The position numbers are program-made. Below, piece after piece: positions 41,781-50,700 of a stretch of 64,000 nt of DNA. Source of the stretch: Ylistrum balloti (taxonomy: Eukaryota); the NCBI RefSeq assembly GCF_031769215.1, contig NW_026782299.1, forward strand, positions 1,798,001-1,862,000. Reading direction: 5' to 3'. The first letter of the stretch is position 1; every line of letters starts with the position of its first letter.

Positions 41781-44700
41781 ATAAAAACTTGTCAACACAT
41801 TCATATAACTTTAAAACCGAGTGATTTAATATGGAATGTATAAATGTACATAGTCAATAACCCCGATAATTAACAGAATGGTTGTTTCCCGAATGACACA
41901 ATATTCCGTTAGGATGAATGAATGACAGAAAAGTAAATACAGCACACGATTGTAGTAACGGGAAAATAAATTTTGTTTAAACTCCCGGATGGCTACACAT
42001 TTAGGAATTACAAAGCATAAATTGTTCCAACGTTTCCTTTGATACGTTTAAAATAATAATTATCAACTCTTGTTTTCGGTATTCACTCCTACTTTACATA
42101 TGTCAATTGCTTATTGTGACGTCATGCATAATTTGCCTTCCATGACGTCATTTTTAGTGTCTTATTAAGCCTTCCATTAGATATGTTTGCTGGCGACTAG
42201 CCCCTGGGATTGACAAGGAGATTTAACGTAGCTGCAACAGCAGTCAGACCTTTTATATCTTTTACTCACTATATAATAACAGTTCTTATTCAAAAAGTTA
42301 AAACCATGTCAATTTCAAATCTACACGGCTTCCTATTTCTTCCATGACGTCACAATTCCTCGTGAAGATGAATCTTTGGTTTTTCCACCACATCTCTATC
42401 GTTTTCCTCTTCGTCTCCCTCGTCTGCGCTGACAATTGATGGCATTTTCCTCACGTACTCCTTCTTTGGTTTGATGTCCTGGACATGGACAAATTCAGAC
42501 TGGTATTTATTTTTCTTAAAAACAGCCTTACCGAGTTCATCCACCAACTGGTTGAGAATGTTCTTCCTTTTGGTGAAGTATTCCACAGTTTTCGGAAAGG
42601 TCACCTCTGTAAAGAAATAAATACTCACAGTTCATTTTTCAAGTTACACGATTGTAGATACAGGTCTAAAACATCGATTATTGCTTTATTTTTTGTTTTT
42701 TCGATTTTGTATATTTTATTTAATGGTGACATTCGGGTAAATAAGACTAACCGTCAGTATATGCAAGGGCCTTCAGAACTGCCATTCGTTCCTCGTCTAG
42801 CGTGTCCACTTTTCCGTGGTGTTCTACAAACTCCAGCAGATAGATATAATAATCAGCAAATCTAAAACAGACAGATATTATTGAACTGAAGCCGAATCAT
42901 GTTTTATTTTTTTTCAATACAGAACAAGTACATTTTGTCATCGTTGAACCAACACCAAGTTGTATTTCAACATGAAATACATAAGATGCTTCATGACTTT
43001 ATTCAAATTGTTCAAAGATGCAAATAACTGTAAAGAAAATTTCATTAACGTTTGAATATAATCAATTAAAAGATAAAATCGACAGAATATCATGTCGTGC
43101 TAAATCGGTCCCTTCGGCACCTTCCGTGTAAGAAACGACGCACGTCACATTTACGGAAAGTGACGAAGGTTCTCGATCCTTACAACGGAAACCAAATATG
43201 CTCTTATCTTGATAGGTTTAAATGATATTTTTAACACGTTTTTTTTCTTCAAATATTTCAAACCATTTCTGTCGATAAGATTAACCCACGTTTGATACAG
43301 AAATGCCGATATCCAAACCACCGTCGTTTATGTAGTCCGGAGGGGACATTTTGAGATAGTAGCATGTCAAGAGCCGATCAGCTATTTATAGATTGTCAAC
43401 GAATGCATCATTTATCTAGTGTTTTACCAAACATTTACTTTTTCATTACACGCACATTGATATTTGATTGACAGGACCATAAAGGTACTGACAAGTATTT
43501 AAACTGAAAAGTCATTCATTTGAAATTGAGCTTCATTTGTCATTTACTGCATACACGAGATGCAAAATGCACTGAAATATTTAAAATTGTAAGGTAAGAA
43601 TGCCGATATGATATATGTGACAACTGAGCAAGAAAACTAGAAGACAACTGGAAATTAGTCTAAACCTTCCCGCTTCAAATTCTCAGTCACAATCAACATC
43701 AATTTCAGGTTAATATTACATCAACATCGACTCATGTTTGTACCTTTCGCATAGATGATGATGTTCATCAATTCCATCGTGAGATATTCGCTGCGTGAAA
43801 GTGCAAAATTCATAGGAATCTTAAATATTAGACAAGAATGTCCGTTCTATGTACTATGGTACATCGCGCTTCGTCGCTGCTATATTGAATGTCCCCTCCG
43901 GACCAGGTAAACGGCAGTGGAAATCGTTACATCGAATTTCTTAGTAACATATAGGGTGGTTATTGTACGATATACTTACTCATTCATTTCGTATTTCTTG
44001 GCGATATCTTTAGCTGCTACCAGTAGTTCACTCTATAGAAGATAATTTCAGTATCAGTTATCGTTGTGGGCAATTTAACTATTTGGATAAGGAACAATAT
44101 ATAGCCAAACATCTACTACGTAAACAAATCAATTATCATTCCTTGTTTTGTAAATAACGAGGATATGAAAAAAATATCGTGAATGAAGTGAGAATTGAAT
44201 AATTTGATATTTCTCGAGCGTTTCAAAGTTAGTCTTTACATAAAACACAATTTCCATATTTAGATTTCAACGGAAAATACGCATTCGCTAGGCATGTGAC
44301 GTCATTATTAAGGATAAAGATTAAATATTTTAAATCAAATTGCCATAACAGTTTTTTTTGTGAAATACACAATCAATACTAGGTACAGCATGCGGCAAAA
44401 GCAAAAAATTTCGTGCATATTGATATATACTTGATATTTGATACAGGTCATATTATTCAGAAATGTGTTCCATTGTGAATATTTTTTTCAATAATGATTA
44501 ACACGAGGTGCCAGTCCCCTCCCCCTTCCAAAGCCCTTGCGTGCCGAGATTACCATCTGAGTGGCTTTCCTGATGACCTCGATGTTATCTGCGATGAGGT
44601 TATCGAAGTCAGAAATACGTCCTGCCTGAAAATATTCCATGTTATAAATGTTGACAAAAATGTTTCAGCAAGAGATTGTTTAAACGTTTTTTTATAAACG

Positions 44701-47700: not shown

Positions 47701-50700
47701 TAGAAGATGTGTGGCATGGTGAACGTACATAATATTGAACTTGTGAAACCGAATTTGCATACCCTACTTTTATGAGTCTATACATTTTAATCCAAATGTA
47801 CAGAATGTCTGATTCACTTACGAAGACAATGCATTGTAAGTAAAGATTTGGTACAAAATGTAACTTATTATTTTGTGTTCGAGTTAATGGATTACACAGT
47901 ATAAATACATATTGTCTATTAGTATACCTAATCTAGATAAGATTCGTATAACCCTTTTTACCAATTATTCACAACATATTTTACCGATATGAAACTATGC
48001 GGGAAAAACATATATGATAGCAGTGCAAAACTGTTGTTCCTCCCATAATGTACAATGTGGGTGTTGGAAATCCATCATTGTGATACTTACTTGATTTTGT
48101 GACTAACACCAACAAAAACTTCTTTTTATCCAATAACTGAAAACAAAAGATAAATAACTTAAAGAACTTACATCGTAAGGTATAAACCATACAAAATTAA
48201 CTGTATAAATGTTCGTAATACCTCGGCAAATTTCGTTTAAACTCGTAACCGAGTCTGCACGGAATTTCCCGAGATGACTTGATTGTGAATCAATCTATAT
48301 TATTTTGTATTGTTTACTTAACATTTTGATATTTTAGGAATACGATGAAGTCGGTGTAAATTGTTTTGCTTGCTACACACATGTACACAATACAATACTA
48401 CAGAGACAGTTGACAACAGCTGGGGCAGGCTTCAGTGTAAGACGTGTGAGTTAATTTTGGTCGATTTTACGCATCTGTCACCATCGCTACATCTTTTCTT
48501 ACTCACGAATTTTACTCTAATTCTAACTTCGTTACTCTGTGTAATGTTATAATTCATGTAAACCCGTTTAAAATCAGAGGTCTCCATTAACACCAAATCA
48601 TTAATTGCACAATGCTGCAAATATAAATGACAAATTCTTAATAAAAATACAGTTGTTTACATACCGAAAGGTTCCTAGATTTTACTATAATACATGTGTA
48701 TGTCTCTCGATAAACTTTATAAAGCTCACAATAAGGACAACTTCATTTTTATCTCTTCACATTAATTATGAATAATGATTAAATTACTAGTAATCAAACA
48801 AGATAAAAAGTTTGTACCATGTGATATCACACGGGAAACTGAAGACAGACAGGTGTATTTTGATAAGTTTTTGTCATGTAGTCTGTTTCAATCCCTCAAC
48901 CCTATCACGAATTCATCAACCATATCGAATCCATCAACCCTATATCGAATTCATCAACCCTATATCGAACCCATCAACCCTATATCGAATTCATCAACCC
49001 TATATCGAACCCATCAACCCTATATCGAATCCATCAACCCTATCTCGAATCCATCAACCCTATATCGAATCCATCAACCCTATCTCGAATCCATCAGCCC
49101 TATATCGAATCCATCAACCCTATATCGAACCCATCAACCCTATATCGAATCCATCAACCCTATATCGAATCCATCCACTTTTGATCATAGACTTTTTAGC
49201 TGGTAGACGTATTCCTTGTGTCACGTAAGCATGTAAATTGACTATTTCTATGAAACTCTTGTAAATCTTCAAACTAAAGGGTAAAGTTTTATAGTGTAAT
49301 CCATGCGTGAAAATATGAATAAATAAAATATCGTAACCAAAGACCCAAGTCCAATGAAATGAAACATTTACTGAATATAGACCAACTTACCGAGTGTATA
49401 TTTTTCTCCGTGATATTGAGAACATGTCCAGAAACCACACTAAGGAAACACACGAGTAGTAAACTGGTCAGTGTTATCTTGACCGGCTTCATTTTCTTTG
49501 TGATGAATGTTTGTATCACGTAAGTAAAATTAATACGTGTTTCAACAGTTCAATACTACCGAATCAATCTCTGGTGTTCATCTGTTCCTCCGAAAATTTT
49601 GCTAAAATATTTCCTTTCTCAGGTAAATTTTCTTCGAGAGCTGTATGTTACATGAATATGCCTTTTTTGTAGTAGTTTTAATATTTTACATTGATTTATT
49701 GGAGACACGTGTTTCGCATGGCACGTATACAACGCCGCCAGATGTTACCTACAACTTCCACGAGTGACCTCCCTTGTCCCGTTAATGATATAATTTGCTG
49801 TGCGAAAAAGGATCTTGAGCTTCGATTTTATACTTTCTTCACTTGAATGTCTTCAAATTCGTCCCGAGCGGTACGGTTCTTTTGTGATATATAACCACCT
49901 GATAACCTACATATATATACCAGTGGTTCATGGCCGCCATTCAGGCATTTCTGCGCTGTTTTATTATATTTATTGGAATTTTACAAAACATTTCTCGTTT
50001 ATTTGCAATCTCTATTTGTATAATGATATTTTCAAAGCCCTACATGTAAGTTGGAACAAAAATAATCAAAATTATAGTATTACGGTTACCAAATTACAAA
50101 TGTTTTCATTTTGTTTTACATATCAAACGTCATGTTCAAAATCTTCAGTAATCGAACTTTAGTTGTCTCATTTGTGGCCACACAAATTTCTATATACAGA
50201 AATTCTGATCAAGTCGTGTGTGATTCACGCACAAAATCAGAATACATGATAAATGTATTTAAAACAATATTCCCCTTCTGGAATCTGACTGATGTTAAGT
50301 ACGCTTTCTCATTTATCCACATAGTAAACAGTATTAGTCCTGAATCTGAAAAATCTGTCGAAGCTATTGGAAACAATAAGATTTTTAACATTTCGTTTAA
50401 AAAAACGCAAGTATTTTAAACACCAACTTGGTGATATTTCAGTTAAGTTTCCTCCTGTGCTGGCAAAAAAGGTACAAGTAGGTTTTAATTAATTTTTTTC
50501 TAATTATTGGATATGTTAACAACAATAACAAAAAAAAAAATCAATGTAAATTCAATTTTGTACATTTGTATTTCCATGGAAATTGTTACTTATTCAAGTC
50601 ACTAACAGACAAAAAACTGCTGTAAAACTTTCACAGAGTTTAACCTGTGTCAAGTTACTACGCGATTGAAAATGTGGCAGCAACCTTCAGCTGTCGCTGT

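What the first reader, a model, noticed from the sequence alone, without database searches (positions are those of the whole stretch)
42350..49492. Animal PDI with the Trx-Trx-D architecture typical of fungi, plants and amoebae
Seen: signal peptide, two Trx folds, the TG..R..DG.L...AG linker, an ERp29-type helical D domain, an acidic tail and HEEL. Established: the a-a'-D layout marks fungal TigA/ERp38, plant PDIL2-1 and Dictyostelium PDI-D, whereas vertebrate ERp29 and Drosophila Windbeutel have one Trx plus D. Inference: a retained ancestral PDI-D lineage in a spiralian, bearing on the origin of ERp29.
Basis: partly seen in the sequence, partly recalled or inferred. Interest (0 to 1): 0.65.

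Follow-up and report, generated by a model that had tools for sequence, protein, structure and literature searches.

The report
Scallop ER protein: Trx–Trx–helical D layout
This scallop gene encodes an endoplasmic-reticulum folding helper built like the "PDI-D" enzymes of fungi, plants and amoebae, but only its first thioredoxin unit keeps a redox site, which makes it an unusual animal relative of that family and not a standard member.

Summary
On the minus strand, 49492..42350, 11 GT-AG exons encode letter for letter a public 419-aa protein, LOC132554902 of the scallop Ylistrum balloti.

The parts in order are a signal-like N-terminus, a Trx domain with a CTPC site, a second Trx domain with no cysteine, the conserved linker, a helical D domain, a disordered charged tail and HEEL.

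A profile of six mollusc members aligns along its whole length with two bona fide Trx-Trx-ERp29_C proteins (probability 99.9, E 9e-33). The D part aligns on its own too (96.8, E 2e-10). An ortholog's model has ERp29 and Windbeutel as its best solved-structure matches.

The layout is a-b-D, not a-a'-D. An in-frame "WCIKC" is intron read-through. The D domain is so diverged that Pfam ERp29_C scores 17.5 bits, below its 24.3 cut-off.

Named members come from five bivalve species. A survey of Metazoa and a phylogeny with ERp29 and PDIA6 could not be done, so "retained ancestral lineage" stays an inference.

Verdict: a new variant of a known kind, of moderate interest.

The parts
49391..49492 (-). 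Exon 1: start codon at 49492, signal-like N-terminus (residues 1-22, 49492..49427), N-I-T sequon at residue 26, start of Trx domain 1
   Evidence: donor gtaagt. (NxS/T at 26 in the 3 pectinid proteins). Signal peptide judged from the sequence only; no predictor was run.
48091..48136 (-). Exon 2: first beta strand of Trx domain 1. Ends in phase 1 inside codon 50, one residue before the first active-site Cys
   Evidence: acceptor ttttcag, donor gtaagt. Too short (15 aa) for a Pfam scan of its own.
46621..46789 (-). Exon 3: CTPC active site (codons 51-54 at 46787..46776), helix a2 and the cis-Pro strand (F-P92-T) of Trx domain 1
   Evidence: It is the only one of 9 exon translations scanned alone that hit Pfam: Thioredoxin, E 2.1e-5, 24.9 bits, cut-off 23.5. 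C51, C54 and P92 are invariant in 6 of 6 full-length mollusc members.
46121..46299 (-). Exon 4 as in the RefSeq model: end of Trx domain 1, inter-domain link, first strand of Trx domain 2. A second, consensus donor (gtaagt) lies 9 nt upstream at 46130|46129 in the same phase
   Evidence: This exon's translation retrieved P0001, P0002 and P0003.
45749..45810 (-). Exon 5: helix a2 of Trx domain 2, at the place where a catalytic domain would carry CxxC. No cysteine here
   Evidence: b-site strings of 7 mollusc sequences against WCGHC in P0015 and P0016.
45199..45248 (-). Exon 6: strand b3 and helix a3 of Trx domain 2
   Evidence: The matching stretch is conserved in orthologs.
44797..44956 (-). 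Exon 7: cis-Pro strand (F-P210-S) and C-terminal half of Trx domain 2, plus the linker TG..R..DG.L
   Evidence: The HMMER scan of 1.84 billion representatives with 44797..45057 found 8 family members. R247, G251 and L253 are invariant in 9 of 9 sequences.
44554..44625 (-). Exon 8: AGRI..FD motif and first helices of the D domain
   Evidence: helices 261-276; aligned to the D domain of P0015.
43980..44032 (-). Exon 9: D-domain helix (residues 281-298)
42752..42861 (-). Exon 10: D-domain helices carrying the conserved A-x-Y-Y-I motif
   Evidence: A300, Y302 and Y303 are invariant in 9 of 9 sequences.
42350..42606 (-). Exon 11: last D-domain helix (K-R-K-N-I-L motif), disordered basic-then-acidic tail, HEEL (42364..42353), stop TGA (42352..42350)
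   Evidence: 366-419 pLDDT below 50; tail composition; 6 of 6 members end in HEEL or HDEL; TGA.

Best explanation
The locus is the Ylistrum balloti gene LOC132554902. It encodes a soluble protein resident in the ER lumen that descends from the PDI-D (Trx-Trx-D) type of protein disulfide isomerase but has become a-b-D.

Shown:
- 11 exons encoding a 419-aa product.
- A signal-like N-terminus and a C-terminal HEEL.
- Trx domain 1 with a conserved CxxC at the N-terminus of helix a2 and a cis-Pro loop.
- Trx domain 2 without any cysteine.
- A five-to-six-helix D domain homologous to that of PDI-D, ERp29 and Windbeutel.
- A disordered charged tail.

Inferred mechanism:
- The protein enters the ER and is retrieved by the KDEL receptor through HEEL.
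- The single CxxC of domain 1 carries out thiol-disulfide exchange on client proteins. It would have properties unlike classical PDI: no Trp before the site, a variable XX dipeptide with Pro before the second Cys in scallops as in thioredoxin, and neither the buried Glu nor the mobile Arg.
- The inactive second Trx domain and the D domain act as the client- or partner-holding module. Published work assigns that role to the D domain of ERp29/Windbeutel and to the D domain of Arabidopsis PDI11.

In short, I read it as a one-site oxidoreductase fused to an ERp29-like escort module, probably serving a subset of secretory proteins in bivalves.
For: Gene model and identity.

Domains:
- Pfam on P0001: Thioredoxin E 1.7e-14, Thioredoxin_6 E 3.4e-7, ERp29 over profile 1-94/95 at 17.5 bits.
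- ERp29 was seen at E<=0.01 in 4 of the 6 mollusc proteins I scanned. One of them, P0003 at 24.9 bits, passes the cut-off.
- AF2 model: pLDDT 80.4, pTM 0.76, with the three domains and a disordered tail.

Homology to PDI-D:
- The profile search returned P0015 and P0016 at E 5.9e-24 and 2.6e-23.
- hhalign over the full length: probability 99.9, E 9.4e-33.
- hhalign of the D part alone: probability 96.8, E 2.3e-10, 103 columns, 32% identity.
- The second domain matches catalytic a-type domains of solved PDIs at E 2.9e-6.

Structure:
- In the model of ortholog P0003, 8 of the 10 best PDB rows are ERp29 (2qc7_A, E 3.7e-8, 238 columns) or Windbeutel.
- Atlas models: residues 127-359 give TM by query 0.72-0.80 against fungal and plant Trx+ERp29_C clusters, and 0.54 against an ERp29 cluster.

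Redox site:
- C51 and C54 are invariant in 6 of 6 members.
- They are the only cysteines of the mature protein in the 3 pectinid sequences and in P0013 and P0014, that is 5 of 6.
- Domain 1 is the best conserved part among pectinids: 89% and 80% identity, against 70-72% for the b and D domains.

ER retention: 6 of 6 members end in HEEL or HDEL.

Expression in relatives: P0004 (416 aa) and P0013 (412 aa) sit on contigs of 1464 and 1422 nt. These contigs must be intron-less, so I infer that they are transcript-like.

D-domain function in relatives: passages of PMC8836223 (the D domain of AtPDI11 is needed for activity and binds calreticulin) and of PMC7506106 (the D domain of ERp29 is essential for client binding).
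Against: - No biochemical, expression or localisation data for this protein were found.
- Residues that classical PDI a-domains use are missing. The 'GGR' arginine loop reads G-D-I-T, and the residue before the first Cys is K, D or N instead of W.
- NCBIfam pdi_dom scores 56.7 bits against a cut-off of 107.2.
- The CxxC could therefore be a structural disulfide or a metal site.
- By sequence alone the D domain does not reach solved ERp29 or Windbeutel. The profile of three mollusc D parts found neither at E<=10, nor did P0001 or the b-D profile.
- The full-length model's PDB matches were tandem-Trx proteins. No ERp29 or Windbeutel appeared among the 42 rows listed, which run to rank 50.
- Two in-frame donors 9 nt apart make the exact loop of domain 2 uncertain.
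Confidence: 0.6

Rival explanations
1. It is a redox-inert escort chaperone of the ERp29/Windbeutel kind. The b-D module does all the work. The CxxC of domain 1 is a structural disulfide or metal ligand, so the protein is a pseudo-enzyme.
For: - The PDI-type catalytic helpers are absent.
- pdi_dom scores far below its cut-off.
- The XX dipeptide varies freely: TP, AP, EE, EK.
- The best solved-structure matches of the b-D module are ERp29 and Windbeutel.
- For residues 127-365 the Atlas feature scores of the Windbeutel and ERp29 clusters (0.90) are as high as those of the fungal PDI-D clusters (0.88-0.89).
Against: - Both cysteines are invariant in 6 of 6 members across scallops, oysters and P0005.
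- They sit at the canonical position at the start of helix a2, opposite a conserved cis-Pro.
- Domain 1 is the most conserved part among pectinids.
- Thioredoxins with a CxPC site are active without the PDI-type arginine (established knowledge, recalled).
Confidence: 0.25
2. It is a standard a-a'-D PDI with two active sites, which is the strict reading of the finding's title. The second site would be the in-frame WCIKC that follows exon 4.
For: - Reading through the exon 4 donor stays open for 29 more codons. It spells W-C-I-K-C followed by a helix-like stretch.
- In a crude control, only 2 of 4883 intronic start points on this strand both stay open for 30 codons or more and have a CxxC in the first 8 codons. 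The read-through itself lies among the scanned points.
Against: - The public model and the exact threading place this stretch in intron 4.
- No GT follows the helix-like stretch before the stop.
- None of the 7 mollusc sequences covering this region has a cysteine there, including the two transcript-like contigs.
- The Cys would lie two residues out of register with the canonical Y-A-P-W-C spacing.
Confidence: 0.03
3. The gene is not a vertical heirloom. It would be a horizontal acquisition, or a contaminant, from a fungus, plant or protist that carries PDI-D.
For: - The nearest families outside molluscs are fungal and plant ones.
- NCBI names the orthologs after plant PDIL2-1.
- The papers I read know no animal member (PMC8836223 and PMC3017771, passages).
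Against: - It has ten GT-AG introns.
- Its G+C content matches its surroundings: 0.35-0.38 in the 2-kb windows over the gene, against 0.30-0.44 across the window.
- Its neighbours are of animal type.
- Orthologs occur in five named bivalve species of two lineages. They form one clade with 100/100 support against the two PDI-D sequences.
- Identity to the PDI-D proteins is only 17-35% per domain, so any transfer would be ancient.
- Contamination is excluded. An ancient transfer is not.
Confidence: 0.07
4. It is a diverged member of a well-known animal subfamily with two Trx domains and an acidic tail, such as PDIA6/P5 (a0-a-b) or ERp44.
For: - JGI labels the canonical relative P0015 'protein disulfide-isomerase A6'.
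- PDB fold matches of the full model include ERp44, ERp72 a0a and rice PDIL2-3 a-b.
Against: - The C-terminal domain is all-helical, not a Trx fold.
- No hit to the PDIA6 C-terminal family (PF24541) appeared at E<=1.
- Atlas structure rows for PDIA6-type clusters have TM by query of 0.35 and 0.50, against 0.72-0.80 for Trx+ERp29_C clusters.
- P0015 itself carries ERp29_C at 93.5 bits, so its JGI label is loose.
Confidence: 0.03

Closest known systems
PDI-D / PDI-S family: fungal ERp38/TigA, plant PDIL2-1 (AtPDI11, GmPDIS), Dictyostelium Dd-PDI, Entamoeba EhPDI (layout a-a'-D)
   Same: - Signal peptide, two tandem Trx folds, the R..DG.L..KAGRI linker and the helical ERp29_C-type D domain, all in the same order.
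- Full-length profile alignment with two such proteins.
- Best structural fit of the b-D module among Atlas models.
   Different: - The second Trx has no CxxC, so it is b-type.
- The first site is CTPC/CAPC/CEEC/CEKC rather than CGHC.
- The arginine loop and the Trp before the site are lost.
- There is a 56-residue charged tail ending in HEEL or HDEL.
- The D domain is much diverged: Pfam 17.5-24.9 bits against 78.5-93.5.
- The host is an animal.
ERp29 (vertebrates) and Windbeutel (Drosophila), layout b-D
   Same: - An inactive Trx-like domain followed by the D domain, with a KDEL-type end.
- These are the best solved-structure matches of the ortholog's model: 2qc7_A at E 3.7e-8 and Windbeutel chains at about E 1e-7.
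   Different: - The scallop protein has an additional N-terminal Trx domain with CxxC.
- Its inactive domain matches catalytic a-type domains and not Pfam ERp29_N.
- No sequence-level hit to solved ERp29 or Windbeutel.
- Dimerisation was not tested.
Komagataella phaffii Erp41, an ERp38-family member with unequal sites CSHC and CGYC (PMC10938136, passages read)
   Same: It is a precedent that the Trx-Trx-D scaffold tolerates non-standard active-site motifs that change the enzymology.
   Different: Erp41 keeps two CxxC sites. The scallop family keeps one, and with different dipeptides.
Chlamydomonas CrPDI-2, layout a-D (as described in PMC3017771, passage read)
   Same: It shows that the D-domain scaffold occurs with a reduced number of active Trx domains outside animals.
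   Different: CrPDI-2 lacks one Trx domain altogether. The scallop protein keeps the fold and has lost only the site. No sequence comparison was made here.
PDIA6 / P5 (a0-a-b, acidic tail, KDEL)
   Same: Two N-terminal Trx folds, an acidic C-terminal tail and an ER retrieval signal.
   Different: The third domain of PDIA6 is a Trx fold, whereas here it is helical. PDIA6 has two CGHC sites.

Membership tests
PDI-D / ERp38 / PDIL2-1 (a-a'-D) | Two tandem thioredoxin-fold domains at the N-terminus | tested here: met
   Pfam Thioredoxin gives 2 stretches, plus Thioredoxin_6. The AF2 model has Trx folds at 24-124 and 135-243.
PDI-D / ERp38 / PDIL2-1 (a-a'-D) | Both Trx domains are catalytic (CxxC, typically CGHC) | tested here: not met
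   Domain 1 has CTPC. Domain 2 has no cysteine in 7 of 7 mollusc sequences that cover it.
PDI-D / ERp38 / PDIL2-1 (a-a'-D) | C-terminal helical D domain (Pfam ERp29, PF07749) | tested here: met
   - Pfam covers the whole profile but falls below the cut-off in P0001 (17.5 against 24.3 bits). It passes in ortholog P0003 at 24.9 bits.
- hhalign of the D part alone against PDI-D: probability 96.8, E 2.3e-10.
- ERp29 and Windbeutel are the top PDB fold matches for P0003.
PDI-D / ERp38 / PDIL2-1 (a-a'-D) | Collinear full-length homology to accepted members | tested here: met
   hhalign of six molluscs against P0015+P0016: probability 99.9, E 9.4e-33, 330 columns. Caveat: the two comparators are unnamed or JGI records, recognised by their own Pfam content. 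They are not ERp38, TigA or PDIL2-1 themselves.
PDI-D / ERp38 / PDIL2-1 (a-a'-D) | Phylogenetic placement with PDI-D rather than with ERp29 or PDIA6 | not tested
   No ERp29, PDIA6 or named PDI-D sequence could be obtained.
ERp29 / Windbeutel (b-D) | N-terminal domain of the ERp29_N type (PF07912) | tested here: not met
   No PF07912 hit at E<=1 in P0001-P0003, and none at E<=0.01 in P0005, P0013 and P0014.
ERp29 / Windbeutel (b-D) | A single Trx-like domain with no CxxC anywhere | tested here: not met
   There are two Trx domains, and the first has an invariant CxxC.
ERp29 / Windbeutel (b-D) | D domain with the ERp29 fold | tested here: met
   2qc7_A at E 3.7e-8 and Windbeutel chains, with 232-259 alignment columns. 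TM 0.54/0.61 to an ERp29 cluster.
ERp29 / Windbeutel (b-D) | Homodimer through the Trx-like domain | not tested
   The complex-prediction job was never accepted by the queue.
PDIA6 / P5 (a0-a-b) | Third domain is a Trx-like b domain (PF24541), with two CGHC sites | tested here: not met
   The third domain is helical. No PF24541 hit at E<=1. The site motifs are as above.

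The most novel reading that the evidence does not exclude
Bivalves, and perhaps molluscs more widely, keep a vertically inherited animal descendant of the ancestral eukaryotic PDI-D gene in an intermediate a-b-D state. The second catalytic domain is already silenced but the first is still present. That would be a living model of the path by which the b-D chaperone ERp29/Windbeutel arose from an a-a'-D enzyme: silencing of a' first, then loss of a. It would also overturn the textbook statement that animals lack the PDI-D type.
Probability: 0.15. Interest if true: 0.7.

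Novelty: new variant of a known kind. Interest (0 to 1): 0.45.

Why it matters
Reviews and family papers state that the Trx-Trx-D type of protein disulfide isomerase has no animal ortholog (PMC8836223 and PMC3017771, passages). This locus shows a clear, intron-rich animal homolog, conserved between scallops and oysters.

Its form sits between the two known D-domain layouts, a-a'-D and b-D. That gives a concrete object for two questions:
- How did ERp29/Windbeutel originate?
- What does the D domain contribute when only one redox site is left?

For bivalve biology it is a candidate specialised folding factor of the secretory pathway. The finding is limited: the gene is already in RefSeq under an automatic name, and the family may be confined to one class.

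Tried and rejected
- Exon-alone Pfam scans. Only 1 of 9 exon translations gave any hit at E<=1, so single exons cannot show the D domain. Exons 2, 6 and 9 (15-17 aa) were too short to send.
- My first hand-built model was dropped. It used a long form of exon 7 starting at 45057 and an extra piece at 43790..43744. The public protein threads differently, and the extra piece is out of phase.
- The representative search was sent with 44797..45057 before I knew that its first 34 residues are intronic. One of its 9 hits, P0006 (4564 aa), aligns mostly to that intronic part and to a K/N/V-rich stretch. I treat it as spurious.
- Full-length homolog searches timed out.
- The region-limited search found only 4 pectinid proteins among 702 candidates.
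- Sequence searches of the PDB never reached ERp29 or Windbeutel from the mollusc side. The control with the D part of P0015 did reach them: ERp29 at E 7.9e-10 and Windbeutel at E 0.01.
- The profile of P0015+P0016 against the PDB was swamped by Trx hits.
- The fold search with the full model gave only tandem-Trx proteins in the listed rows.
- Domain-by-domain hhalign could not tell whether mollusc domains 1 and 2 correspond to a and a' respectively. E values were 2e-16 against 1.8e-15, and 3.2e-10 against 3.8e-9.
- tblastn of four family proteins found no second copy in the window.
- A bacterial promoter/terminator scan was irrelevant to a eukaryotic gene.
- The homodimer prediction was never queued.
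- Literature searches found no paper on an animal Trx-Trx-D protein. One search's listed 40 of 52 papers were all on plants. The oyster PDI of PMC8163822 is the classical a-b-b'-a' enzyme (passages).

Full report
WHAT IS THERE

The window holds no N. G+C is 0.30-0.44 in 2-kb windows. On the minus strand the finding's span runs from an ATG at 49492 to a TGA at 42352..42350.

No exon concatenation of mine was sent to any search or fold. The exon translation 46074..46298 returned three public proteins:
- P0001, 'uncharacterized protein LOC132554902 [Ylistrum balloti]', 419 aa, 98% identical over the exonic part.
- P0002, 'protein disulfide isomerase-like 2-1 [Pecten maximus]', 414 aa.
- P0003, the same name, isoform X2 of Mizuhopecten yessoensis, 338 aa.

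A script threaded P0001 through the window. It found 11 exons with GT..AG at all 10 introns and 1257 coding bases, and the conceptual product equals P0001. The organism is a pectinid bivalve, which is a spiralian. All full-length analyses below use the public records returned by the exon searches, not a join of my own.

ANATOMY

- Residues 1-22 are a short basic start and a hydrophobic run. I take this for a signal peptide from the sequence; no predictor was run.
- Pfam on P0001 gives Thioredoxin (E 1.7e-14, two stretches), Thioredoxin_6 (E 3.4e-7) and ERp29 C-terminal domain. The last covers profile positions 1-94 of 95 at residues 258-354, but scores only 17.5 bits against a cut-off of 24.3.
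- The same D match scores 20.8 bits in P0002, 24.9 bits (passing) in P0003 and 19.2 bits in the oyster P0014. It is absent at E<=0.01 in P0005 and P0013. That is 4 of 6 proteins scanned.
- AlphaFold2 on a 9-sequence alignment gave pLDDT 80.4 and pTM 0.76. It shows Trx folds at 24-124 and 135-243, six helices between 261 and 363, and a disordered tail at 366-419.
- The tail has 11 K+R and 14 D+E. All six full-length members end in HEEL or HDEL.

THE ACTIVE SITES

C51 and C54 (CTPC) are invariant in six of six full-length members. In five of the six they are the only cysteines of the mature protein. They sit at the start of helix a2, opposite a conserved F-P-T cis-Pro loop. The dipeptide between them varies: TP and AP in scallops, EE in P0005, EK in oysters.

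The Trp before the site and the PDI-type G-G-R loop are absent. NCBIfam pdi_dom scores 56.7 bits against a cut-off of 107.2, while the canonical relative P0015 scores 243. The best solved match of domain 1 by sequence is a thioredoxin, 2ypm_A at E 1.9e-6.

The second Trx domain has no cysteine where P0015 and P0016 have WCGHC. This holds in all seven mollusc sequences that cover the stretch. The layout is therefore a-b-D.

A TRAP IN THE RAW SEQUENCE

Reading through the donor of exon 4 stays open for 29 more codons and spells W-C-I-K-C followed by a helix-like stretch. I judge it to be intronic for these reasons:
- It lies in intron 4 in the public model and in the exact threading.
- No GT follows it before the stop.
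- The orthologs lack it, including two transcript-like contigs.
- It is two residues out of register with a canonical site.

In a crude control, 2 of 4883 intronic start points on this strand are both open for 30 codons or more and have a CxxC in the first 8 codons. The read-through itself lies among the scanned points. The coincidence is therefore rare and stays unexplained.

RELATIVES

- A HMMER scan of 1.84 billion cluster representatives with 44797..45057 gave 9 hits at E<=0.001. Eight are family members or fragments and one I judge spurious.
- A profile of three b-D sequences gave 10 proteins at E<=10 among 8000 scored. Seven are family proteins, among them Saccostrea cucullata P0014 and Magallana gigas K1P767. 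One is a fragment. Two are proteins with two WCGHC sites, P0015 and P0016, at E 5.9e-24 and 2.6e-23.
- Pfam shows P0015 and P0016 to be canonical Trx-Trx-ERp29_C proteins, with ERp29 at 93.5 and 78.5 bits.
- Profile-profile comparison of six molluscs with these two gave probability 99.9, E 9.4e-33, 330 collinear columns and 25% identity.
- The D parts of three molluscs alone still gave probability 96.8, E 2.3e-10, 103 columns and 32% identity, aligned to positions 298-402 of P0015. A second cut gave E 1.6e-11.
- The D part of P0015 in turn hits solved ERp29 (1g7d_A, E 7.9e-10) and Windbeutel (E 0.01).
- The mollusc D profile reaches neither at E<=10. The link to ERp29_C is thus real but runs through PDI-D.

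STRUCTURE COMPARISONS

- The full model's PDB matches were tandem-Trx proteins such as ERdj5, ERp44 and PDI. No ERp29 appeared in the 42 rows listed, which run to rank 50.
- The model of the N-terminally short ortholog P0003 (pLDDT 77.6) had ERp29 2qc7_A first (E 3.7e-8, 238 columns). Windbeutel chains took 7 of the next 9 rows.
- In the ESM Atlas the protein's own cluster has 141 members, with Mollusca the commonest phylum (phylum known for 98).
- For residues 127-365 the closest Atlas models are fungal and plant Trx+ERp29_C clusters, with TM by query 0.72-0.80. An ERp29 cluster gives 0.54.
- These Atlas rows compare predicted models with predicted models, so they are leads.

WHAT IT IS NOT

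- It is not ERp29 or Windbeutel. Pfam ERp29_N is not matched, there are two Trx folds, and one carries a CxxC.
- It is not PDIA6. The third domain is helical and no PF24541 hit was found.
- It is not contamination. It has ten introns, a local base composition like its surroundings, and animal-type neighbours.
- There is no second copy in the window.
- In a small tree of 8 rows the mollusc sequences form one clade (100/100), with scallops (96/98) and oysters (99/100) inside it. P0003 was left out as truncated, and the root is at the midpoint for drawing only. The place of P0005 is open.

HOW IT PROBABLY WORKS

The architecture, the ER signals, the conserved single CxxC and the ERp29-like b-D module are shown. 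The rest is inferred. The protein would be an ER-resident one-site thiol-disulfide oxidoreductase whose inactive Trx and D domains hold clients or partners.

In relatives the D domain is needed for the full activity of AtPDI11 and binds calreticulin (PMC8836223, passages). It is described as essential for client binding in ERp29 (PMC7506106, passages). The main rival reading is that the CxxC is structural and the protein is purely an escort chaperone.

KNOWN OR NEW

[quoted passage not shown] PMC3017771 (passages) lists amoeba and fungi as having it, says mammals have only b-D, and mentions an a-D form in Chlamydomonas. PMC10938136 (passages) describes a yeast member with unequal sites.

Eight literature searches found no paper on an animal member. 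The library lacks most subscription journals, and supplements were closed. The gene is already in RefSeq, and two orthologs already carry the automatic name 'PDI-like 2-1'. I rate it a new variant of a known kind.

LIMITS

- No phylogeny with ERp29, PDIA6 or named PDI-D proteins was made, and no survey of Metazoa.
- The organisms of the unnamed records (P0004, P0005, P0013, P0015, P0016) were not sought.
- The homodimer job was never queued.
- I saw no transcript data for Ylistrum itself.

Noticed in passing
window 46120..46041 (minus strand, start of intron 4): In-frame read-through of the exon 4 donor spells W-C-I-K-C plus a helix-like stretch and stays open for 29 more codons. It mimics a PDI active site. 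It is intronic in the public model and absent from 7 of 7 orthologous sequences. By a crude control it is a rare coincidence: 2 of 4883 start points. Chance, a relic and a retained-intron isoform all remain possible.
   Followed up: partly
window 46130|46129 against 46121|46120 (minus strand): There are two in-frame donors 9 nt apart. The upstream one is a consensus gtaagt. The RefSeq one is gtataa, the weakest of the 10 donors. The upstream donor would remove 3 residues, giving 416 aa, and would fit the ortholog lengths better. It would also split the codon that aligns with the codon split by intron 2 in domain 1, in the same phase 1. That suggests an intron older than the Trx duplication.
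   Followed up: partly
window 45057..44957 (minus strand, just upstream of exon 7): An open frame of 34 codons is continuous with exon 7 and lies behind an AG (gtgtcag). Its phase fits the end of exon 5, so skipping exon 6 would stay in frame. It looks vaguely like a Trx b3/a3 stretch. It gave no Pfam hit, and the orthologs follow the exon 6 path.
   Followed up: partly
window 43790..43744 (minus strand, intron 9): A short open stretch flanked by AG and GT resembles the start of exon 10 (an E-Y-L..M.. helix pattern) but is out of phase with its neighbours. I first mistook it for an exon.
   Followed up: no
window 48890..49175 and 45360..45558: Two intronic minisatellites: 20 bp x 14.4 copies in intron 1, and 28 bp x 7.1 copies in intron 5. 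The unit of the second contains an inverted repeat.
   Followed up: no
window 25925..28094, 28098..28429, 34661..35633, 36973..37533, 50916..53508, 55499..56953: Large tandem arrays:
- 47 bp x 46 copies, G-rich, which accounts for the GC-skew spike of 0.59 at 26-28 kb.
- 38 bp x 8.7 copies.
- 57 bp x 18 copies.
- 34 bp x 17 copies.
- 51 bp arrays over 2.6 kb.
- 30 bp x 49 copies, which produces long spurious open frames on both strands.
   Followed up: no
window 2618..2959 and 4044..4931 (+), 11743..12087 (+), 30261..30680 (+), 18266..19072 (+): Exon-sized open frames of neighbouring genes:
- PB1 (E 6.9e-11) followed by PDZ (E 9.3e-12). This pairing recalls Par-6, which is my recall and was not tested.
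- Arrestin_N (E 5.2e-8).
- SPMIP8, sperm microtubule inner protein 8 (E 1.9e-20).
- A Ser/Thr/Pro-rich frame without a credible family.
   Followed up: partly
P0006 (4564 aa, unnamed), residues 615-670: This protein hit the query 44797..45057 at E 8.9e-9. The match falls mostly on the part of the query that is intronic, and on a K/N/V-rich stretch of the target. I take it as compositional.
   Followed up: partly
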